NCBI GenBank assembly: GCA_008273105.1
Contig: GCA_008273105.1_4080.1
DNA: 64,000 nt
Reading direction: 5' to 3' (one strand)
DNA from: a phage
Below the pieces are notes generated by a model that was not told where the DNA came from, did not search any database, and saw only the letters and a list, made by a program, of their open reading frames with translations. Of this stretch, positions 13,448 to 63,488 are shown piece by piece. Within the stretch, counting starts at the first letter, position 1, and each line of letters starts with the position of its first letter. The position numbers and the translations under genes are program-made.

Positions 13448-13924
13448 TTATTTTAGAATGTATAAGTGTTTTTCTGCATTGACCAGTCGGTGATCAATGA
13501 TTTCTTTGATAACGTTCCAGTTACCGCCGCCCAAATCGGCTCCAATTTTCGGGAAGTGTACATGAACATCTCGATCAACTTTACAAAAATAATTTAGATG
13601 TTTGAACACATCGTCGATTGCATCATAACTGACATATTTAGCACCGTCATTACCGTACATTTTTTGGGTAATACAGTTTGCAATAATCAAATTATCGTTA
13701 ATTGCTGAATATGCAATTTGTCCAATTCTAAGAAATCCCATTTCCTTTTCATATGCTTTATAATCATCATATGCCATTGGGTAACGATTTCTTAGCTCTT
13801 TTGCAAAACCTGAACCCATTTTACCCTGTGCGTTACAACCATGAGCAATTATATGTATTGCTGTTTTATCATCTGTTACAGTACTGAATAATTCAAACAG
13901 ATTACCTCGGTGTTCATGAATCAT
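13448..13924 (-). CDS. macrodomain protein, TARG1/OARD1-like (ADP-ribose processing)
   Basis: IIAHGCNAQGKMGSGFAKELRNRYP and FPKIGADLGGGNWNVI match recalled OARD1 blocks (ISHCISEDCRMGAGIA..., MPRIGCGLDRLQWENV). Confidence 0.65.
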   Translation of the reverse strand: MIHEHRGNLFELFSTVTDDKTAIHIIAHGCNAQGKMGSGFAKELRNRYPMAYDDYKAYEKEMGFLRIGQIAYSAINDNLIIANCITQKMYGNDGAKYVSYDAIDDVFKHLNYFCKVDRDVHVHFPKIGADLGGGNWNVIKEIIDHRLVNAEKHLYILK

Positions 13925-14262: not shown

Positions 14263-14514
14263 TTATTTAGGGTTGCCAGAAACCTTCACATGTTTGATAA
14301 ATGCCAAAATATCATCTTTACTAAAAGATTTTACAATAAATTCGACAGCGGAATCATACTGTTCTTGTTTAGATAGATATTCTTTCATCTTGTTAATTTT
14401 AATCTGGGCTTTTTCTTTAGCTATTGAAATATCAGGAATTTTGAACTCTACTCCCAACGTATCAGCTAGTTGTTTTGCACGAGATGATACTTTTTCAATA
14501 TCCATTAGTTCCAA
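14263..14514 (-). CDS. hypothetical protein
   Basis: 83-aa ORF. Confidence 0.45.
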   Translation of the reverse strand: MELMDIEKVSSRAKQLADTLGVEFKIPDISIAKEKAQIKINKMKEYLSKQEQYDSAVEFIVKSFSKDDILAFIKHVKVSGNPK

Positions 14515-14753
14515 CGACCTTCTTTAAGACCTTCAATAAACCCAGTACAACCACCTGGTACATAAATGTCATTTACGAAAATTTGAGGAACTTGACGAAC
14601 TGGTTCACCACAAATTTCAGACAGTTTTGAACCATCGATACCTTCAGCAACAATATCTACAAACTCCATTTCAAATTTATTTTGTTCACATACAGCTTTT
14701 GCAGTGTCGCAAAATTTACAACCAGTCTTGCGACCATAAATTTTAACTTTCAT
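14505..14753 (-). CDS. nrdC: glutaredoxin/thioredoxin (T4 NrdC-like)
   Basis: MKVKIYGRKTGCKFCDTAK: CxxC redox motif in NrdC-like context; ~82 aa. Confidence 0.75.
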   Translation of the reverse strand: MKVKIYGRKTGCKFCDTAKAVCEQNKFEMEFVDIVAEGIDGSKLSEICGEPVRQVPQIFVNDIYVPGGCTGFIEGLKEGRWN

Positions 14754-14754
14754 G

Positions 14755-15156
14755 TTATTTCCTTCTATTTCTTTGAAAAGCTTTAACAGCTTTAATAATA
14801 CTGTTACACATTCGTTCAGTCAAATACTTTTGACATTCTCGTACATCAATGTACATGAACTTATCCAATTCTGGATGACTCTTACCATATCTATTAGTGT
14901 AAGTACTTTTACAAACTAATTCATCTGGTATTGGTTTGTCTTTGGCAGTATAAAAGAAAAGTACTAACCTTTTTCCCTTTCTATAGGATACATCACCAAG
15001 AAACAGAAGATCATCTTCATCGATTTCGTATCCTGTCTCTTCGAAACATTCACGTACAGCAGCTTCTTTGAAAGTTTCATTACCCTCAGCTTTCCCTTTA
15101 GGTAAATCCCAATGATTCTGTCCGTGTTGTATGTCCGATAAGTATCTGACCATCAC
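14755..15156 (-). CDS. Nudix hydrolase
   Basis: Canonical Nudix box GKAEGNETFKEAAVRECFEETGY. Confidence 0.8.
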   Translation of the reverse strand: MMVRYLSDIQHGQNHWDLPKGKAEGNETFKEAAVRECFEETGYEIDEDDLLFLGDVSYRKGKRLVLFFYTAKDKPIPDELVCKSTYTNRYGKSHPELDKFMYIDVRECQKYLTERMCNSIIKAVKAFQRNRRK

Positions 15157-15264: not shown

Positions 15265-16377
15265 TTAGAACATTTGTTTGATTGCTTCATAACGAAGTTC
15301 ACAAACAAAATCACGAATTTCTGACGTTTCAAGTTCACCATCTTTGACCATTTGCTGAATATCAGGCAATTCAACATCAGTATAACGATCATAAACTTTA
15401 ATAATTAGATCTTCAAGTTCTAAATCAATTTCTTTTCGCAAAATGAAGTATTCCAAAACTTTATAAAGGAATTCTTCACCTCCGTTATTTTTAATATTCA
15501 TATCCAATAAAATATTACCCATTTCAATAGGGGTCTTTTTACGGAATGTTTTGATATCATCACGGAAACGTTTGATATAATTACTAAATTTAACATACTT
15601 AACTGGAACTTTAATAGCACCGTTAAGTACTGAATCATTATTTACTTCTTCATTTTCAAGAAGAATAGACCACAGAAAATATGGTTTATATACATCCGTA
15701 CAGTTCTCTGCAATATAATCAATAAGGTCTAAATTCTTTTTGGTCAAAGATGTATTAAACACCTTTTCGTAATAACCAAATTTACTTAGCGTCTTAAGGA
15801 ACTTTGCAGGCTTTTCTTCGGAAAATGCTTTTTCGAATTCCACAAAAACACGGTCAGGAACAAGATGATTTAGCTCACCACTATTGACCATTCCAATAGC
15901 TAGTTCCTCAGTGCTTTCATGGATAGTAAAGTCTGAATAACGAGTAGCAAATCGAGCAAGACGTAACACACGTAATGGATCTTCTTTAAAATGGTCAGAA
16001 ACATGACGTAGTACCTTGTTCTTGATATCAGCTTTACCACCGTATGGATCAATGTGAATTTGTAGTACTGGATCATACGAAATTGCATTTATTGTTAGGT
16101 CACGGCGATACAAATCTTGTTCGAGTGTTACGCCTTTTGTATCCACTTCAAAGCCACCATATCCAGTACCAGTTTTACGCTCAGTACGGGCTAATGCGTG
16201 TTCATTACCTTCTGGACTTAGATATACAGGGAAATCCTTACCTACTTGCTTATAGCCAATACTTTGCAAGTACTTAATATCAGATTCAGTTGCTCCGACA
16301 ATGACATAATCTTTGTCTTTTGCACGAAGACCCATTAAACGGTCACGGACGTAGCCACCAACCAAATACTTTTTCAT
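15265..16377 (-). CDS. cca: tRNA nucleotidyltransferase (CCA-adding enzyme), head/neck domain only
   Basis: MKKYLVGGYVRDRLMGL...DKDYVIVG...ALARTERK...RRDLTINA...EDPLRVLRLARF closely matches class II CCA enzymes; shorter than E. coli Cca. Confidence 0.85.
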   Translation of the reverse strand: MKKYLVGGYVRDRLMGLRAKDKDYVIVGATESDIKYLQSIGYKQVGKDFPVYLSPEGNEHALARTERKTGTGYGGFEVDTKGVTLEQDLYRRDLTINAISYDPVLQIHIDPYGGKADIKNKVLRHVSDHFKEDPLRVLRLARFATRYSDFTIHESTEELAIGMVNSGELNHLVPDRVFVEFEKAFSEEKPAKFLKTLSKFGYYEKVFNTSLTKKNLDLIDYIAENCTDVYKPYFLWSILLENEEVNNDSVLNGAIKVPVKYVKFSNYIKRFRDDIKTFRKKTPIEMGNILLDMNIKNNGGEEFLYKVLEYFILRKEIDLELEDLIIKVYDRYTDVELPDIQQMVKDGELETSEIRDFVCELRYEAIKQMF

Positions 16378-16512: not shown

Positions 16513-16935
16513 TTAAATTAATCTGTCACGTAGACGGTCGTAATATTTTTCGTGTATAGCTAGTATACACTGATATGCAGAATAGTCAATGCCAAATGTA
16601 TCATCAATGAACATGTACTGATCAAGTGCTTCTGGCCCATTATCATCAACTGGTAATGTCCCTTCTTTTTTTGATAGGGTGTGCCACATCAACTCACTTT
16701 CAATATGGTGAGTTGCGTATGTCAATTCAATCTTACTTTTTCTTAGTAAAATTAACAATTCATCATTGTCGTCGAGTGCATTACGAAATTTAATACGAAC
16801 AGTACCCTGAAAATTATTAGTGTACATAACACGATGTTGATTATATGTAACTAAACCACGTCTTTCAGTACTGATTTCGTGTTCAGCAAAGTACTTTAAC
16901 GTTTCATTAAATTTTGGAATTTTAGTAACGTCCAA
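16513..16935 (-). CDS. hypothetical protein (paralog pair A)
   Basis: 140 aa; shares (Q/Y)xFIDDTFGIDxxxYQ motif with 16922-17338. Confidence 0.5.
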   Translation of the reverse strand: MDVTKIPKFNETLKYFAEHEISTERRGLVTYNQHRVMYTNNFQGTVRIKFRNALDDNDELLILLRKSKIELTYATHHIESELMWHTLSKKEGTLPVDDNGPEALDQYMFIDDTFGIDYSAYQCILAIHEKYYDRLRDRLI

Positions 16936-17338
16936 TCACATAATCCTCATAAAGTTTGTATACCCTCATTATACTCTGATATGTATCAAAGTCAATGCCA
17001 AAGGTATCATCAATGAACTGATATTGCAAAAACTCTTCCTCTGTAGCAGCAATAGGAAGAGTCCCGTTTCGTTGTTCTGTTGATTGAACATCCTCAATAT
17101 ACATCAACACTATACTTTCATCCAGATTTATATCTATCATAAAAACATCTTCACTATAAAATATGTTATATGTACGGATGAAGAGATTTCCTGTTCTATC
17201 ATAACTTGACACGTGTGTTTCATAATACATTTTATCTAAACTAAAGAACAAACCTGTACTATCTGGCTTTTTAGTATTTTTTAATTTAATTTCGATAGCA
17301 TCAATCATAGGTTTAATATCAAACTTTTTCATAGACAA
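16922..17338 (-). CDS. hypothetical protein (paralog pair B)
   Basis: 138 aa; paralog of 16513-16935. Confidence 0.5.
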   Translation of the reverse strand: MSMKKFDIKPMIDAIEIKLKNTKKPDSTGLFFSLDKMYYETHVSSYDRTGNLFIRTYNIFYSEDVFMIDINLDESIVLMYIEDVQSTEQRNGTLPIAATEEEFLQYQFIDDTFGIDFDTYQSIMRVYKLYEDYVIGRY

Positions 17339-17514
17339 ATCACATACTTATTACTATGTGGATCGTAACAATATGAATCATTTACCTTAATACCAGGCTT
17401 AAGTTCAATAGTTGTTCCTGTTTCTGTACTGGGTTCTGCATCACAATAAATCATCACACCAACCCCGACTAGTAAGGATATGATACATATAACTATACAT
17501 ATTGTATATTCCAT
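17329..17514 (-). CDS. small membrane protein
   Basis: 61 aa, N-terminal hydrophobic helix. Confidence 0.4.
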   Translation of the reverse strand: MEYTICIVICIISLLVGVGVMIYCDAEPSTETGTTIELKPGIKVNDSYCYDPHSNKYVICL

Positions 17515-17527
17515 AAATTTATCTCCA

Positions 17528-17923
17528 TTATAAAAAGTAATTATACAGTTTATTGTACAATATAAAAAGGTCTTTCACATTATCATAAGTAATATCAGAT
17601 ACATCATGAATTAATGATAACTGAAAAAATGAAGCTTCGTCTATTTCTGCTGGAATTATAACATCACCATCGTCTTCGTCCATTTTATTGGTGTAGTATT
17701 TTATGTGATCTACATTCAACTCAATAGAGAACGCAATGTTGGTTTTTGTATAATCTTCAATTAATCCAATATATTGAGATTTTTCATTAATAAAAAATCC
17801 AATCCCAACACAACGGTTATCTGGATATGGATAGTACCATCTATTAATAACTAGGTGTTCAGGTAAGTCCATATCATGTGTTGATATTAGAGATTTTACA
17901 ATTTCCATCCAGGAATAATTCAT
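17528..17923 (-). CDS. hypothetical protein
   Basis: 131-aa ORF. Confidence 0.5.
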   Translation of the reverse strand: MNYSWMEIVKSLISTHDMDLPEHLVINRWYYPYPDNRCVGIGFFINEKSQYIGLIEDYTKTNIAFSIELNVDHIKYYTNKMDEDDGDVIIPAEIDEASFFQLSLIHDVSDITYDNVKDLFILYNKLYNYFL

Positions 17924-17976
17924 AATTAAAACTCCATAAGAAAAGGGACAGAATTAATCTGTCCCTTTAGTATATA

Positions 17977-18309
17977 TTACTCTTCGTTTTCTGTCAAATC
18001 ATCAAGAACTGGGTGTTCTGGATGGTTTCGGCGGTGTAATTTAATGCTTTTGTCTTTACTGAATACAGTTTCCATCTTATCAAAAGATTCAACAATTGCT
18101 TTATACAAATCAGCATCATCAGCAGTTACTGATTTACTACCAGCAGTTAAAGTTACAGCATATTGAGTTTTATGCTCTTTCTTAACATGAACACCAATGT
18201 CTAGTACTGAAGAAGTACGGTACTTATCCAGACTTTTTGCTTCATTGTAAATAGCATCTTGGATTGCTGGAGTGATATCAACGTTGCCTTGAATATTTAG
18301 ATTTAGCAT
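17977..18309 (-). CDS. hpf: ribosome hibernation promoting factor / RaiA-family protein (short form)
   Basis: MLNLNIQGNVDITPAIQDAIYNEAKSLDKY...LYKAI aligns with recalled RaiA/HPF N-terminal signature (NITSKQMEITPAIRQHV...). Confidence 0.8.
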   Translation of the reverse strand: MLNLNIQGNVDITPAIQDAIYNEAKSLDKYRTSSVLDIGVHVKKEHKTQYAVTLTAGSKSVTADDADLYKAIVESFDKMETVFSKDKSIKLHRRNHPEHPVLDDLTENEE

Positions 18310-18325
18310 ACTTCACCTTCCTTTT

Positions 18326-19252
18326 TTAGAGTGAACTTAACAACAAATCTGCTCGGTTTGTAACTTGACGATACCATAAGGAATTCATAATTTCTTTTTT
18401 AAATTTCTTAGGGTTATCATTTTTCACACTTTTCCAAAGTTTATTAAACGTTGCTAATTTATCAACACCCATTGTATAGGACATTTCATAAAGAATACGT
18501 TGTTGTTCTTTGGTCAGATTTACTGCTTCTTTTTTCTGCATCAATAATAAAAAGTCATTATATGTTCTTTTCATATCTTGCATTAAAAGTTTATTGGCTT
18601 GAGCTTTGGTAATACCGTTTCTGTACTTAATCGCATCAGATTCTTTTCTACCCAAATAATGCCCATAACCTATTGTATAATTACCTTTCATGTCCTTGTA
18701 GGGATGAAATTTAGAATTGTGGAAAGGAACTCCGACTTTCCCACCAAGTAAACGGCGTTTGTTCTTGGACTGAAATTCAATTGAACCTTCAGCTTCTTTG
18801 ATGTGATTGACAATTTCTGGATCATTATAATCAAACAGTACAGTCACATCTGGTAACAATACGTTCTTCAAATCCTCTTTTGTTGGGATAAAGATACCCT
18901 GAGAAGTATGAAGAGTAGCATTTAAATTGATATTTTTCAACAAAATAACATACTCTTCAAGTTGTACATTTTTAGGTTTAAACTTTTTAGCAATAGAATA
19001 ATAACTATCACCAGGTTGAACCGTATAATGCTTCTCGCCGCGTGGAACATCCTTTGATATTTCTACCTTTGGTAATTCCTGCTTTTGAATTTGCGTAACT
19101 TGTGGTTTTAAATTGTGTACCTGACTTTCGTCCGATGATGATACACGATCATTTTGAGAAAAACCATAAAATCCAATCGCAGCGACAAGTACTGTGCAAA
19201 CTAGAACACCATAAGTAGTCTTAGTTTTCAGTGCTTTTTTCGCTTGTTTCAA
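18326..19252 (-). CDS. T4-type lysozyme with N-terminal signal anchor and LysM domain
   Basis: YKDMKGNYTIGYGHYLG and WYRQVTNRA match T4 lysozyme; LysM-like YTVQPGDSYYSIAKKF; likely TTG start at 19252 behind AAAGGAGG. Confidence 0.75.
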   Translation of the reverse strand: MKQAKKALKTKTTYGVLVCTVLVAAIGFYGFSQNDRVSSSDESQVHNLKPQVTQIQKQELPKVEISKDVPRGEKHYTVQPGDSYYSIAKKFKPKNVQLEEYVILLKNINLNATLHTSQGIFIPTKEDLKNVLLPDVTVLFDYNDPEIVNHIKEAEGSIEFQSKNKRRLLGGKVGVPFHNSKFHPYKDMKGNYTIGYGHYLGRKESDAIKYRNGITKAQANKLLMQDMKRTYNDFLLLMQKKEAVNLTKEQQRILYEMSYTMGVDKLATFNKLWKSVKNDNPKKFKKEIMNSLWYRQVTNRADLLLSSL

Positions 19253-19420: not shown

Positions 19421-19831
19421 TTAATCGTAGTAAGTTCTACCTACAGTGATGTGATATTTAAAGTACTTGGTTGGTAGTCCTAGTTCATTTCTAATATGTG
19501 TGATGAAATCATCTTCAAATTCAATGATAAAGAATGAACCTGGATTCTTTTTATCTTTTACTATCTCAATACAAGGATTGAACTTTATCTTTACTTTCAT
19601 TCCATCGTACTTTTTCCAGTACTCTGGATTTGGTGGCACTTCACCACGAACGATACTGACATGTGCTCCCCATTGTGGGTCTTTAATATCAATATGTAAG
19701 TCAGTTCTGATGAAGTACTGGTAGTATCGAACCAACTGTAATGGAAGTTGTAGTACTAACCAGAAGTCCTTCTTCTTTTTCATAGTGCCACGATCTGGAT
19801 CATACACCAGAGTTCCTTCCATTTCAATCAT
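19421..19831 (-). CDS. hypothetical protein
   Basis: 136-aa ORF; sigma70-like TTTACA-17-TAAAAT just downstream. Confidence 0.5.
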   Translation of the reverse strand: MIEMEGTLVYDPDRGTMKKKKDFWLVLQLPLQLVRYYQYFIRTDLHIDIKDPQWGAHVSIVRGEVPPNPEYWKKYDGMKVKIKFNPCIEIVKDKKNPGSFFIIEFEDDFITHIRNELGLPTKYFKYHITVGRTYYD

Positions 19832-24764: not shown

Positions 24765-25205
24765 TTATTGTAAAACTTTAAGTTTGTAAAGTGTTCCTTC
24801 AACAAAACTCATAATATCTTCTAATGTGTTTACACTGCCGTAATCACCTGATTCTTCAAGCATATCATGAATTGCTCTACATTGCTCAACATATTCTTCA
24901 AGAATTGGTACACAATCTTCAATTGGTGTAAAACGGTAACTATTACCAGTTCCAACTTGTAAAGCACCACGATTATTCATGATACCTTCAACAAATGCGT
25001 CTACATATTCTGGTAATTCTTTATATAGTTCATCTAATTGTAAATGCTTTGTATAAAAATGACATTGTAAGTGCCAGTTATGTGCAGCAGAACTTAAAAA
25101 CAAACTATTTTCAATAAAAGTTAATAGTACTTCATCATATGAATTATCTTCTTCAGTACTTCCGATAAAGTCCATTACGTGTCGTAAATCATTAATATCT
25201 TCCAT
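24765..25205 (-). CDS. hypothetical protein
   Basis: 146-aa ORF. Confidence 0.5.
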   Translation of the reverse strand: MEDINDLRHVMDFIGSTEEDNSYDEVLLTFIENSLFLSSAAHNWHLQCHFYTKHLQLDELYKELPEYVDAFVEGIMNNRGALQVGTGNSYRFTPIEDCVPILEEYVEQCRAIHDMLEESGDYGSVNTLEDIMSFVEGTLYKLKVLQ

Positions 25206-28973: not shown

Positions 28974-29004
28974 GATTATACATAATTACTTTTTCTATGT
29001 CAAG

Positions 29005-62069: not shown

Positions 62070-63488
62070 TTAGCCAAGTGATTCAATGATACTGTTTGAG
62101 AACACCTCAACAGCACTATCACGAATTTCTAAAATACGAGTATAGTCGTCACAAGTGTTTTTGTCAAATCTAAATTCAATAAACACTGGTAAGAACAGTG
62201 ATGGCTCACCAGTACGCTTGTCGAATACAATGTCATTACACTCAACTGTAACCACTTTACCAATAAGTTCTTGCATTCTTTCCCAAATGGTTTTAAATGT
62301 CCATTCAGCATCTTTCTCTTTGATACCAGTACCCACATTAACTTTCAATGAACCACAAGCACTTTCCAGTTGTAAAGAACCTAGGCTTCCTTTACGTTTA
62401 CCTTCACCTTCATTGAAACCAACAATACGCAAGTCTAGTTGCATTTTCAATTTCATTTTCAACTGCTTCGGAGAAGTGTGAGATTTCCAGATACCATCTT
62501 CACATTTCAGTACTGAACCCTCTTCACCTTCGTTCATTAGTTCACTATTGTACTCAAATGCTTCTTTGATGTTTAGAACTTTACGGAATCCAACCATACG
62601 AACAAAATCACTATTGAGTTCGTTAATTGCATCTACTAAGATCTCGCGACGTTCTTTACGTTTTACATCCCATACACCTTCACAAAATGCATCATATGGA
62701 ACAACATCCCATAGAACGAATACAGTACGCATTGCTTCATTCTGACTGATGCTATCTTTACCAGCTTTCTGAATTATACCGTTGCCAGTAGTGCGTGGGA
62801 GAATGGTTTCCCCATCATTGTCCAGTACTACACCTTCCCCCATAAAGACCACACCACTACTAAAACGTTCATCTTTACTTTGGATGATGTGAGCAAGACC
62901 TGCCATCTCACCATCACGACAACCCAGGAAGTCGTATAGTTTACCATTACGGGATGTAGAAGTTAATGAACCATTAATAACAACGTGGTTCAAGTACTGA
63001 CCATCCATTTTCACTTCTGATATAGCGTAACCATAATCTTTGAAGTTGATGTTCTTTGCAGTCTTTTTGTCAATCAAAGAACAACGCATATATGGTTCGT
63101 CTTTAATAAAGCCTTTACCAAATACATCATTGCAGTTCTTTTCTTGAATACCACAATCAAGGTTTTTAGTAAGCATTTTACGGAGAACTTCCTGATCATC
63201 TTCAGATACAGAACCCAGTACTGAAGCAATGAAATCACGCCCCGCATTTCCTGTCACATCACGCTTGTAAATGCATTCTAGCTTATCAATTGCTTCATCT
63301 AACGTCATATGTTGATATACGTCATCAGCGGCAGGGAGCTTCTTATAGCCACTAACGATAGAAGGGTCTAGAGTATATTTCAGTACTTTTTGTAAAGTTA
63401 CATTATCTTTATTTTGTTCAAGAATAGCTTTTTTGCCTAGTGTACTGCTAGTATTTTTAATGCTTTCAAGAATTGCTAAAATGCTCAT
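62070..63488 (-). CDS. ATP-dependent DNA ligase (T4 gp30-like)
   Basis: N-terminus matches T4 ligase as recalled (…GKKAILEQNKDN…); KMDG motif I, EGSVLK motif V, LFLPVFIEFRFDK motif VI. Confidence 0.85.
   Translation of the reverse strand: MSILAILESIKNTSSTLGKKAILEQNKDNVTLQKVLKYTLDPSIVSGYKKLPAADDVYQHMTLDEAIDKLECIYKRDVTGNAGRDFIASVLGSVSEDDQEVLRKMLTKNLDCGIQEKNCNDVFGKGFIKDEPYMRCSLIDKKTAKNINFKDYGYAISEVKMDGQYLNHVVINGSLTSTSRNGKLYDFLGCRDGEMAGLAHIIQSKDERFSSGVVFMGEGVVLDNDGETILPRTTGNGIIQKAGKDSISQNEAMRTVFVLWDVVPYDAFCEGVWDVKRKERREILVDAINELNSDFVRMVGFRKVLNIKEAFEYNSELMNEGEEGSVLKCEDGIWKSHTSPKQLKMKLKMQLDLRIVGFNEGEGKRKGSLGSLQLESACGSLKVNVGTGIKEKDAEWTFKTIWERMQELIGKVVTVECNDIVFDKRTGEPSLFLPVFIEFRFDKNTCDDYTRILEIRDSAVEVFSNSIIESLG

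What the first reader, a model, noticed from the sequence alone, without database searches (positions are those of the whole stretch)
17977..18309. Phage-encoded ribosome hibernation factor homolog
The 110-aa protein carries the RaiA/HPF N-terminal signature. A phage copy could stabilise or silence host ribosomes during infection. It lies in the same transcription block as the CCA-adding enzyme, Nudix and glutaredoxin genes.
Basis: partly seen in the sequence, partly recalled or inferred. Interest (0 to 1): 0.55.

Follow-up and report, generated by a model that had tools for sequence, protein, structure and literature searches.

The report
Jumbo-phage RaiA-like ribosome hibernation factor
A giant E. 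coli phage carries a small, well-conserved gene related to the bacterial proteins that park idle ribosomes, but the gene is already annotated and published, and nobody has tested what it does.

Summary
The ORF is real: window 17977..18309, minus strand, 110 aa. It passes Pfam Ribosomal_S30AE (41 bits, cut-off 23.7). [quoted passage not shown]

The window is an Asteriusvirus jumbo coliphage, 100% identical to phage SP27 over the 1.8 kb compared. The identical protein is already annotated as "S30EA" or "HPF/RaiA family". Phage HPFs were described by Mizuno et al. 2019, including the homologue in GAP32, whose close relative CBB holds the gene in the same slot.

New here:
- Positional orthologues sit between the tail lysozyme and the CCA-enzyme block in four jumbo-phage lineages.
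- All share a RaiA-like layout: short core, basic Arg-Arg stretch, acidic disordered tail.
- dN/dS is 0.12-0.27.
- E. coli contact residues are only partly kept (K80, K87, K89 kept; R83 to Thr; K91 to Ile).
- No phage record encodes RMF.
- A conserved terminator plus sigma70-type promoter lies directly after the gene, so a shared operon with the CCA, Nudix and glutaredoxin genes is not supported.

Most likely the protein binds the decoding site of idle host 70S ribosomes as RaiA does. Ribosome binding and its benefit to the phage are inferred, not shown. Already known; modest interest.

The parts
17977..18309 (-). CDS for a 110-aa HPF/RaiA-family (Ribosomal_S30AE) protein. Core domain residues 1-87; basic stretch K85-K87-K90-R93-R94; disordered acidic tail ending DDLTENEE.
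   Evidence: dN/dS is 0.12-0.27 against six orthologues. 100% identical to proteins annotated 'S30EA' or 'HPF/RaiA family' in phages slurp01, Sharanji and UE-S1.
18313..18321 (-). Shine-Dalgarno sequence GGAAGGTGA, 3 nt upstream of the ATG. It lies in the 16-nt gap to the upstream lysozyme gene.
   Evidence: Read directly from the sequence. A purine-rich SD is present at the same place in all orthologues.
18326..19252 (-). Upstream lysozyme + LysM gene (tail lysozyme). Probable co-transcription partner of the HPF-like gene, with only 16 nt between them and no hairpin.
   Evidence: Pfam Phage_lysozyme 45 bits and LysM 22.5 bits. The same gene order is found in 121Q, Munch, Hallingskeid and CBB.
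17934..17968 (-). Intrinsic-terminator-like hairpin (stem AAAGGGACAG / CTGTCCCTTT) followed by TTTTCTT, starting 8 nt after the stop codon.
   Evidence: A hairpin plus T-run sits at the same position in A4, EcMJ, Turkey5, EJP2, Hallingskeid, Munch and CBB with different stem sequences, which is covariation. Annotated as a terminator in Munch and G17.
17969..17997 (-). Sigma70-type promoter TTGACA-17 nt-TATACT. It overlaps the last codons (Leu-Thr of the DLTE motif) and the stop codon of the gene, and faces the downstream genes. Transcripts starting here would begin inside the 5' arm of the hairpin.
   Evidence: 11 of 12 consensus matches. TTG-ACA codons and a TATAAT-like box at 17-nt spacing are kept in Turkey5, EJP2, Hallingskeid and Munch (EcMJ has TTGACT); P about 9e-6 from codon usage, lineages assumed independent. 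In CBB the same module lies just after the stop codon. The related phage PA5oct uses TTGAC/TATAATA promoters.
18076..18319 (-). Sharply bounded mosaic tract covering codons 1-78 and the RBS. It differs at 50 positions from phage 121Q, while the flanks are almost identical.
   Evidence: dS for hpf is 0.55 against 0.005 for the adjacent lysozyme gene, with dN/dS 0.15. This indicates allele exchange by recombination, not positive selection.

Best explanation
The gene encodes a short, single-domain member of the HPF/RaiA (Ribosomal_S30AE) family. It has been inherited at one fixed genomic slot, after the tail-lysozyme gene, in a clade of about 350-kb jumbo phages of Enterobacterales.

Shown here: family membership, the fold, purifying selection, synteny, and a layout like that of RaiA. 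That layout is a core of about 87 residues, then a basic segment whose Arg93-Arg94 align with RaiA Arg95-Arg96, then a disordered acidic C-terminus.

Inferred mechanism:
1. Like RaiA, the protein inserts its beta-sheet face and basic helix a2 into the 30S decoding cleft (A/P sites) of host 70S ribosomes that carry no mRNA or tRNA.
2. Its C-terminal extension runs towards the mRNA channel, where RMF binds.
3. Idle ribosomes are therefore held as intact, nuclease-protected 70S monomers rather than RMF/HPF-driven 100S dimers.
4. The benefit for the phage would be a preserved and quickly re-usable ribosome pool in starved, stationary-phase or defence-arrested hosts.

The gene is probably transcribed together with the lysozyme gene, and its transcript ends at its own terminator.
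For: Family and fold:
- Pfam 41 bits, above the 23.7 cut-off.
- PDB sequence hits are to HPF/RaiA/protein Y.
- The predicted fold matches 38 of the top 38 Foldseek hits to HPF/RaiA-type structures, including ribosome-bound ones.
- The BFVD structural search recovers the PBECO4 and GAP32 homologues.

Functional constraint:
- dN/dS is 0.12-0.27 in all 21 pairwise comparisons of 7 orthologues.
- Positional orthologues that pass Pfam at 52.7-62.3 bits occur in Munch, Hallingskeid and CBB.

Ribosome-facing features, numbered as in the E. coli contact map read:
- Invariant K78, K85 and K87 correspond to E. coli K80, K87 and K89.
- Invariant K29 matches RaiA K29.
- T53 is kept.
- The basic loop K43-K44-E45-H46-K47 is invariant.

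RaiA-like layout:
- R93 R94 align with RaiA R95 R96, which contact 16S rRNA and uS7.
- The segment charges are -2 / +3 / -6, against RaiA 0 / +3 / -5.
- An acidic C-terminus is present in all four phage lineages, including CBB, where the promoter does not overlap the coding sequence.

Other support:
- No RMF homologue exists in 50,697 phage records, so an HPF-type 100S role would depend wholly on host RMF.
- Hibernation factors block YbeY and RNase R attack on 16S rRNA.
- The fENko-Kae01 orthologue was detected by mass spectrometry, so the protein is made.
Against: - No experiment exists for this lineage.
- The rv5 phage HPF, from a different lineage, did not co-purify with E. coli ribosomes and did not change 100S levels.
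- Two of the four basic contacts shared by E. coli HPF and RaiA are not kept in register: R83 is Thr and K91 is Ile, although K90 is adjacent.
- Only 7 of 18 mapped contact positions are identical to HPF or RaiA.
- Contact positions are not more conserved than other positions within the phage clade (permutation p = 0.48 and 0.68).
- The protein falls below the NCBIfam family cut-off: TIGR00741 36.3 bits against 40.9. It is far below the HPF and RaiA equivalog cut-offs.
- The tail is modelled with pLDDT below 50, so its path on the ribosome is conjecture.
- Part of the nucleotide conservation of the C-terminal 'DLT' codons is explained by the embedded promoter rather than by the protein.
- A protein that blocks A/P sites would also inhibit phage translation if it were abundant. 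The timing and dose of expression are unknown.
Confidence: 0.55

Rival explanations
1. The protein binds the same site but serves as a translation shut-off. It blocks the A/P sites of host ribosomes to silence host protein synthesis or defence proteins. It would act either early, from packaged protein, or late, to stop translation before lysis.
For: RaiA/HPF binding at the decoding site prevents translation initiation. The gene sits directly behind a tail-lysozyme gene, suggesting a late unit. The fENko-Kae01 orthologue was found in a purified phage preparation with 6 spectral counts, which could mean it is packaged and injected.
Against: HPF/RaiA proteins bind vacant ribosomes and do not tell host mRNA from phage mRNA, so a general block would hurt the phage as well. 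The same mass-spectrometry list contains many soluble enzymes (thymidine kinase, RNA ligase, Nudix, CCA enzyme), so the signal looks like lysate carry-over rather than packaging. The timing of expression is unknown.
Confidence: 0.2
2. The fold is kept but the ribosome-hibernation function is lost. [quoted passage not shown] One candidate role is in the RNA-repair and counter-defence block nearby (2H phosphoesterase-like ORF, CCA enzyme, Nudix, macro domain).
For: This is the most divergent of the phage S30AE lineages: 41 bits against 52.7-62.3 for CBB, Hallingskeid and Munch. It is below the TIGR00741 cut-off. R83 and K91 equivalents are lost, and contact positions show no excess conservation. 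rv5 HPF did not bind ribosomes stably. The neighbours are RNA-repair-type genes.
Against: All significant structural neighbours are ribosome-bound hibernation factors. The invariant basic residues lie on helix a2 and its extension, where HPF/RaiA touch h44/h45 and uS7. T. thermophilus HPF also has Thr at the R83 position. No alternative partner is suggested by any search.
Confidence: 0.2
3. The ORF is a decaying passenger, kept mainly because its 3' end carries the promoter and terminator needed for neighbouring genes.
For: The promoter -35 box lies in the last codons. Four Salmonella-phage assemblies (SD-15_S21, SD-2_S15, SD-1_S14, SD-6_S16) show different 5' deletions while keeping the 3' end. 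K64-1 has an unrelated ORF in this slot.
Against: dN/dS is 0.12-0.27 over the whole gene. The ORF is intact at 104-112 aa in four lineages even though synonymous sites are saturated (dS above 1). Thirty-seven columns are invariant across 13 orthologues, most of them in the core. The SD-* assemblies also carry frame-breaking deletions in the lysozyme gene and at other hypervariable tracts, so they look like assembly artefacts.
Confidence: 0.03

Closest known systems
E. coli RaiA (YfiA, protein Y), 113 aa
   Same: Same family and fold. Similar length (110 aa against 113). A C-terminal extension beyond the HPF core. The Arg-Arg pair is in the same alignment columns (phage R93 R94, RaiA R95 R96). 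The C-terminus is acidic and flexible (DDLTENEE against EEVEEE). The charge profile is the same, and K29, T53, K80 and K87 equivalents are kept.
   Different: Only 23-26% identity. The NCBIfam RaiA equivalog scores 19.3 bits against a cut-off of 158. R83 is Thr and K91 is Ile. The beta2-beta3 loop is a phage-specific invariant KKEHK. The gene is phage-encoded and sits behind a tail-lysozyme gene, not in a stress regulon.
E. coli short HPF (YhbH), 95 aa, acting with RMF to form 100S
   Same: Same fold: rmsd 1.7 A over 90 columns to 6h4n_x. 27-30% identity. K80, K87 and K89 equivalents are kept.
   Different: The phage protein extends 15 residues past the position aligned to HPF's last residue, H95. 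The equivalog scores 23.2 bits against 125. No RMF partner exists in any phage record.
HPF homologue of Cronobacter phage GAP32 / Pectobacterium phage CBB (Mimasvirus), reported by Mizuno et al. 2019
   Same: The CBB gene is in the same genomic slot (lysozyme, then S30AE, then terminator/promoter, small ORFs, CCA enzyme, Nudix, Grx), and its annotation names the GAP32 protein as its counterpart. Same size (111-112 aa) and an acidic C-terminus. Structural match TM 0.72.
   Different: Sequence similarity is almost gone (BLASTP E = 0.036, 16% identity in the structural alignment). It is unclear whether this reflects extreme divergence or replacement at the same site.
rv5-like (Vequintavirinae) phage HPF, 105 aa
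   Same: A phage-encoded S30AE protein in large E. coli myoviruses, recognised since 2019.
   Different: A separate lineage, much closer to gammaproteobacterial HPF (about 43% identity to E. coli HPF). In the one experiment done, it was not found on ribosomes.
Long HPF of Firmicutes and Thermus (N-terminal domain)
   Same: These give the best sequence hits in the PDB: T. thermophilus HPF at 4.9e-7, sharing the 'LETxV' helix a2 motif with Thr at the R83 position.
   Different: There is no C-terminal dimerisation domain. The protein ends after a 23-residue disordered tail, so self-sufficient 100S formation of the long-HPF type is excluded.

Membership tests
HPF/RaiA family (Pfam PF02482 Ribosomal_S30AE) | Profile match above the curated gathering score | tested here: met
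   41.0 bits against 23.7, E = 3.3e-10, covering 83 of 88 profile positions. All 13 orthologues carry a precomputed PF02482 hit.
HPF/RaiA family (Pfam PF02482 Ribosomal_S30AE) | [quoted passage not shown] | tested here: met
   The AF2 model (mean pLDDT 75; core blocks 74-88) has the elements in that order. The top 38 Foldseek PDB hits are all family members.
HPF/RaiA family (NCBIfam TIGR00741 yfiA equivalog) | Score at or above the curated cut-off of 40.9 bits | tested here: not met
   36.3 bits, E = 6e-9. This is a divergent member by NCBI's stricter model, yet RefSeq still names the 121Q and PBECO4 orthologues 'HPF/RaiA family ribosome-associated protein'.
HPF/RaiA family | Basic residues of helix a2 that contact 16S rRNA (E. 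coli K80, R83, K87, K91; also K89) | tested here: inconclusive
   K78, K85 and K87 (equivalent to K80, K87, K89) are invariant. R83 is Thr, as in T. thermophilus HPF. K91 is Ile, with K90 adjacent.
HPF/RaiA family | Binding in the 30S decoding cleft (A/P sites) of vacant ribosomes | not testable with these tools
   This needs biochemistry or cryo-EM. The only published phage test (rv5 HPF) was negative under high-salt washing.
RaiA subtype | C-terminal extension of about 18 residues beyond the HPF core, directed at the RMF site | tested here: met
   15 residues extend past the position aligned to HPF's last residue, H95. R93 R94 align with RaiA R95 R96, and the end is acidic. The direction of the tail on the ribosome was not testable.
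RaiA subtype | NCBIfam NF007654 equivalog score at or above 158 bits | tested here: not met
   19.3 bits. The protein is not an orthologue of enterobacterial RaiA.
Short HPF subtype (RMF-dependent 100S) | NCBIfam NF007780 equivalog score at or above 125 bits, no C-terminal extension, and an RMF partner | tested here: not met
   23.2 bits. An extension is present. No RMF homologue exists in 50,697 phage records at E <= 0.1.
Long HPF subtype | C-terminal dimerisation domain | tested here: not met
   The protein is 110 aa. There is no second Pfam domain, and the tail is disordered.
Dodecin (PF07311) | Profile match above the gathering score | tested here: not met
   19.5 bits against 22.5. No dodecin appears among the structural neighbours.

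The most novel reading that the evidence does not exclude
The protein could be a dedicated anti-hibernation or counter-defence factor of jumbo phages, acting as a RaiA mimic. It would occupy the decoding cleft and, through its conserved Arg-Arg and acidic tail, exclude host RMF. The phage could then keep or recover usable 70S ribosomes in hosts that respond to starvation or to immune systems by inducing RMF-driven dormancy (RMF rises during DRT2 defence). It might also shield the 16S rRNA 3' end from nucleases during infection. The frequent exchange of alleles of the core domain between related phages would then reflect adaptation to different hosts or defences.
Probability: 0.15. Interest if true: 0.7.

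Novelty: already known. Interest (0 to 1): 0.3.

Why it matters
If the protein really binds host ribosomes, it would be a tractable example of a virus controlling ribosome dormancy. That bears on how phages infect starved or stationary-phase bacteria, which is the usual state in the gut and the environment and a limit for phage therapy. It also bears on dormancy-type immunity.

At present the finding only confirms an annotation that is already in GenBank, RefSeq and UniProt and in a 2019 paper. The added value here is a sharper, testable hypothesis and a corrected view of the gene's transcription unit. The hypothesis is a RaiA-like rather than HPF-like layout, with named residues to mutate and no phage RMF.

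Tried and rejected
1. Positive selection as the reason that 121Q and PBECO4 differ at 18-19 of 110 residues while the adjacent lysozyme differs at 1 of 308. Rejected: synonymous divergence jumps as well (dS 0.55 against 0.005) and dN/dS is 0.15. This is a recombination patch.

2. Truncated genes in Salmonella phages SD-15_S21, SD-2_S15, SD-1_S14 and SD-6_S16 as evidence that the gene is dispensable. Rejected as probable assembly artefacts. The deletions have different ends and coincide with hypervariable tracts. Frame-breaking deletions also hit the lysozyme gene in two of the four records, SD-1_S14 and SD-6_S16.

3. A test of whether E. coli ribosome-contact positions are more conserved than other positions in the phage clade. 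The result was null (p = 0.48 and 0.68), so it argues neither way.

4. Dodecin (Pfam E = 0.0012). Below the cut-off and without structural support.

5. P0015, a 1605-aa protein with 29 matching stretches in the exhaustive search. It is a tandem repeat of one 53-residue unit and uninformative.

6. A literature search for functional work on HPF homologues of jumbo phages. I found nothing beyond annotations, Mizuno 2019 and one virion-preparation proteome.

7. A search for a phage RMF. None was found.

8. The generic promoter scan of the region returned counts at chance level (30 found, 28.9 expected). Only near-consensus sites with cross-genus conservation were used.

Full report

An ORF of 110 codons lies at window 17977..18309, on the minus strand. 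A strong Shine-Dalgarno sequence, GGAAGGTGA, sits 3 nt upstream of the ATG.

- The protein matches Pfam PF02482 (Ribosomal_S30AE, 'sigma 54 modulation protein / S30EA') at E = 3.3e-10 and 41.0 bits. The curated cut-off is 23.7, and almost the whole profile is covered.
- NCBIfam's stricter family model TIGR00741 gives 36.3 bits, just under its cut-off of 40.9.
- The enterobacterial HPF and RaiA equivalogs score 23.2 and 19.3 bits, far under their cut-offs of 125 and 158.
- PHROGs places the protein in an unannotated family (phrog_34864, 3e-62) and, more weakly, in the S30EA family phrog_8990.
- A sequence search of the PDB returns 17 HPF/RaiA/protein Y chains. The best is T. thermophilus HPF at 4.9e-7.
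- An AlphaFold2 model built on 13 orthologues has mean pLDDT 75. The order of elements is b1 2-8, a1 14-30, b2 36-44, b3 50-56, b4 59-65, a2 68-86, followed by a disordered tail 88-110.
- Foldseek against the PDB gives 38 significant hits, all hibernation factors of this family and many solved on ribosomes. E. coli HPF from the 100S particle (6h4n_x) aligns at rmsd 1.7 A over 90 columns.

**2. Where does the window come from, and is this already known?**

The 1.8 kb around the gene is 100% identical to Escherichia phage SP27. It is 96-99.9% identical to 20 other records, including slurp01, Sharanji, G17, 121Q and PBECO4. These are Asteriusvirus jumbo phages of about 350 kb.

[quoted passage not shown] RefSeq gives the latter name to the 121Q and PBECO4 orthologues. 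UniProt names the PBECO4 protein 'Ribosomal subunit interface protein'. The Sharanji genome paper lists it among translation factors.

Mizuno et al. 2019 (PMC6375957) described phage-encoded HPF homologues:
- They include the one in Cronobacter phage GAP32, whose close relative CBB holds the gene in the same slot, and those of rv5-like phages.
- The authors proposed that such proteins might compete with cellular HPF and prevent ribosome dimers.
- They reported that rv5 HPF expressed in E. coli was not recovered in 70S or 100S fractions and did not change 100S levels.

A tblastn search with E. coli HPF finds homologues in 130 phage records. The feature is therefore already known, and what is missing is function.

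**3. Anatomy and context**

All genes in this region are on the minus strand. In the direction of transcription the order is:
- a weak 2H-phosphoesterase-like ORF (19831..19421);
- lysozyme + LysM (19252..18326);
- the HPF-like gene (18309..17977);
- several small ORFs of unknown function;
- the CCA/PolyA_pol enzyme (16377..15265);
- Nudix (15156..14755);
- a glutaredoxin-like ORF (14753..14505);
- a macro-like ORF (13924..13448);
- then neck, dNMP kinase and tail sheath genes.

The slot 'lysozyme, then S30AE protein, then small ORFs, then CCA enzyme, Nudix, Grx/Trx' is conserved in three other lineages:
- Salmonella phage Munch;
- Erwinia phage Hallingskeid;
- Pectobacterium phage CBB, a Mimasvirus whose annotation names the GAP32 protein as the counterpart.

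Their slot proteins pass Pfam at 62.3, 54.4 and 52.7 bits. Klebsiella phage K64-1 has an unrelated 150-aa ORF in the slot.

The exhaustive profile search shows how isolated the Asteriusvirus lineage is. Only 63 of 1.8 billion representatives score E <= 1e-3, and only 6 score <= 1e-10. The nearest outside relatives are of the Munch type.

**4. Is the gene under selection?**

Nei-Gojobori estimates were made on seven orthologues, which gives 21 pairs. dN/dS is 0.12-0.27, similar to the adjacent lysozyme gene at 0.00-0.26, even where dS exceeds 1. The ORF is intact at 104-112 aa in all four lineages. The orthologue in Klebsiella phage fENko-Kae01 was detected by mass spectrometry. A decaying or spurious ORF is excluded.

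**5. Which kind of hibernation factor does it resemble?**

The phage family was aligned with E. coli HPF and RaiA taken from MG1655. Helix a2 is in register, with phage residue n corresponding to E. coli residue n+2.

The contact map comes from a 2025 cryo-EM preprint on Gram-negative HPF/YfiA complexes. It states that K80, R83, K87 and K91 are the four identical residues of E. coli HPF and YfiA that touch the ribosome.

| E. coli contact | Phage residue | State |
|---|---|---|
| K80 | K78 | kept, invariant in the phage family |
| K87 | K85 | kept, invariant |
| K89 | K87 | kept, invariant |
| K29 (RaiA) | K29 | kept, invariant |
| T53 | T53 | kept |
| E44 | E45 | kept |
| R83 | T81 | lost |
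| K91 | I89 | lost, with K90 adjacent |

T. thermophilus HPF is solved on the ribosome (6gzx, 100S) and also has Thr at the R83 position ('LETQV'). That substitution is therefore within the family's range.

Beyond the end of HPF, the phage R93 R94 fall in the same columns as RaiA R95 R96. The preprint describes those two residues as strong contacts to 16S rRNA and uS7 in K. quasipneumoniae YfiA. R94 is invariant in the 13 Asteriusvirus orthologues and R93 is nearly so. In the other lineages the pair reads K-R.

The tail ends in an acidic run, DDLTENEE, against RaiA's EEVEEE. Segment charges are -2 / +3 / -6, against 0 / +3 / -5 for RaiA. An acidic end is also present in CBB (…SEEESEE), where it does not overlap a promoter.

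There is no second domain, so a long-HPF mechanism is excluded. No RMF homologue exists in any of 50,697 phage records. The protein is thus RaiA-like in layout without being an orthologue of RaiA.

One test gave a null result. The 18 mapped contact positions are not more conserved than the rest of the protein within the phage clade (p = 0.48 and 0.68).

**6. Most likely mechanism**

Established knowledge, as summarised:
- HPF and RaiA bind at the codon-anticodon region of the A and P sites.
- RaiA's C-terminal extension protrudes towards the mRNA channel and the RMF site, and is thought to interfere with 100S formation.
- RaiA therefore stabilises inactive 70S monomers.
- Hibernation factors also protect 16S rRNA from YbeY and RNase R.

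By analogy, I infer that the phage protein parks vacant host ribosomes as protected 70S monomers and competes with the host RMF/HPF route.

Which steps are shown and which are inferred:
- Family membership, fold, layout, selection and synteny are shown here.
- Ribosome binding is inferred, at roughly 65% likelihood.
- The RaiA-like outcome, and its benefit to the phage, are inferred more weakly.

The rivals are a shut-off role using the same binding site, a fold kept for a different partner, and a passenger ORF. The last is essentially excluded by the selection data.

**7. Transcription**

- A hairpin (17968..17942) followed by TTTTCTT begins 8 nt after the stop codon.
- A hairpin plus T-run occupies the same position in every orthologue examined, with different stem sequences in EJP2, Hallingskeid, Munch and CBB. 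This covariation argues for a real terminator.
- Munch and G17 annotate a terminator there.
- Directly upstream of the hairpin lies TTGACA-17 nt-TATACT (17997..17969).
- The -35 hexamer is formed by the Leu-Thr codons of the conserved C-terminal DLTE motif. TTG-ACA is retained in five of the six lineages that keep Leu-Thr, although only 6.9% of Leu-Thr codon pairs would be TTG-ACA by this phage's codon usage. That gives P of about 9e-6 if the lineages are treated as independent.
- In CBB the same promoter sits just after the stop codon.
- Near-consensus sigma70-type sites (at most 1 mismatch in 12) are strongly strand-biased in the window, 14 on the coding strand against 2 on the other.
- The related phage PA5oct uses TTGAC/TATAATA promoters at mapped transcription start sites.

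The HPF-like gene is only 16 nt from the lysozyme gene, with no hairpin between them. The likely unit is therefore lysozyme plus HPF-like gene. It ends at the hairpin, and a new promoter then starts the downstream block.

**8. Mosaicism**

Against 121Q, the window is nearly identical over 2.5 kb except for two sharply bounded tracts.
- The first tract, 18076..18319, holds 50 differences. It covers codons 1-78 of the HPF-like gene and its ribosome-binding site.
- In this tract dS is 0.55, against 0.005 in the lysozyme gene, with dN/dS 0.15.
- The SP27-type allele is also found unchanged in UE-S1, whose flanks are only about 90% identical. A near-identical copy (99.1%) is in ph0011, with flanks of about 89%.

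Alleles of the core domain are therefore exchanged between Asteriusviruses by recombination. This is not positive selection.

**9. Verdict**

The finding is correct as an identification. It is only partly correct in its context statement, and it is not new. It gains a more precise hypothesis and a list of residues and constructs to test. Interest is modest at 0.3. It would rise if the anti-hibernation reading were demonstrated.

Noticed in passing
window 18076..18319 and 17342..17425: Two sharply bounded tracts are about 20-30% divergent from phage 121Q inside otherwise near-identical DNA. The first covers the 5' two-thirds of the HPF-like gene and its RBS. The second lies in a 61-aa membrane-like ORF (17329..17514). 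The pattern fits allele exchange by recombination among Asteriusviruses.
   Followed up: partly
window 17934..17997: This is a compact terminator-plus-promoter module. TTGACA-17 nt-TATACT overlaps the last codons of the HPF-like gene and is followed at once by a hairpin and T-run. The module is conserved across four jumbo-phage lineages, so transcripts from this promoter would start inside the hairpin's 5' arm and escape termination.
   Followed up: partly
window, whole (e.g. 29003..28975, 16995..16968, 62167..62139): Near-consensus sigma70-type promoters (at most 1 mismatch in 12) number 14 on the minus (coding) strand against 2 on the plus strand. Several lie in the 3' ends of preceding genes.
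   Followed up: partly
window 16513..16935, 16922..17338, 17528..17923: Three adjacent ORFs of unknown function (140, 138 and 131 aa, no Pfam hit) lie between the HPF-like gene and the CCA enzyme. Two of them share a C-terminal motif, 'FIDDTFGID(Y/F)…Y', and look like tandem paralogues. This stretch varies in gene content between related phages.
   Followed up: no
window 19421..19831: The ORF upstream of the lysozyme gene gives a weak hit to a 2H phosphoesterase domain (PF22547, 25.6 bits against a cut-off of 27). With the CCA enzyme, Nudix and macro-like ORFs nearby, and an RNA ligase annotated just upstream in Munch and Hallingskeid, the neighbourhood looks like an RNA-repair and counter-defence block.
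   Followed up: no
window 24765..25205: This ORF carries DUF5856 (99.8 bits) and a weak ferritin-like hit. In 121Q it is annotated 'starvation-inducible DNA-binding protein' (Dps-like). It is a second stationary-phase-type protein in the same phage region as the hibernation-factor homologue.
   Followed up: no
loci L011-L014 (Salmonella phages SD-15_S21, SD-2_S15, SD-1_S14, SD-6_S16): These records carry deletions with different end points in the HPF-like gene and the small-ORF region, and two of them (SD-1_S14, SD-6_S16) also in the lysozyme gene, some breaking the frame. The deletions coincide with hypervariable tracts and look like assembly artefacts rather than biology.
   Followed up: partly
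locus L015 4528..4980 (Klebsiella phage K64-1): In Alcyoneusvirus, the slot between the lysozyme gene and the CCA enzyme holds an unrelated 150-aa ORF with no Pfam hit instead of an S30AE gene.
   Followed up: partly
protein P0015 (from the representative library, not in the window): This 1605-aa predicted protein consists of about 29 tandem copies of a 53-residue unit that weakly resembles beta3-beta4-alpha2 of the phage protein. It is probably a repeat or assembly oddity. Its origin is unknown.
   Followed up: no
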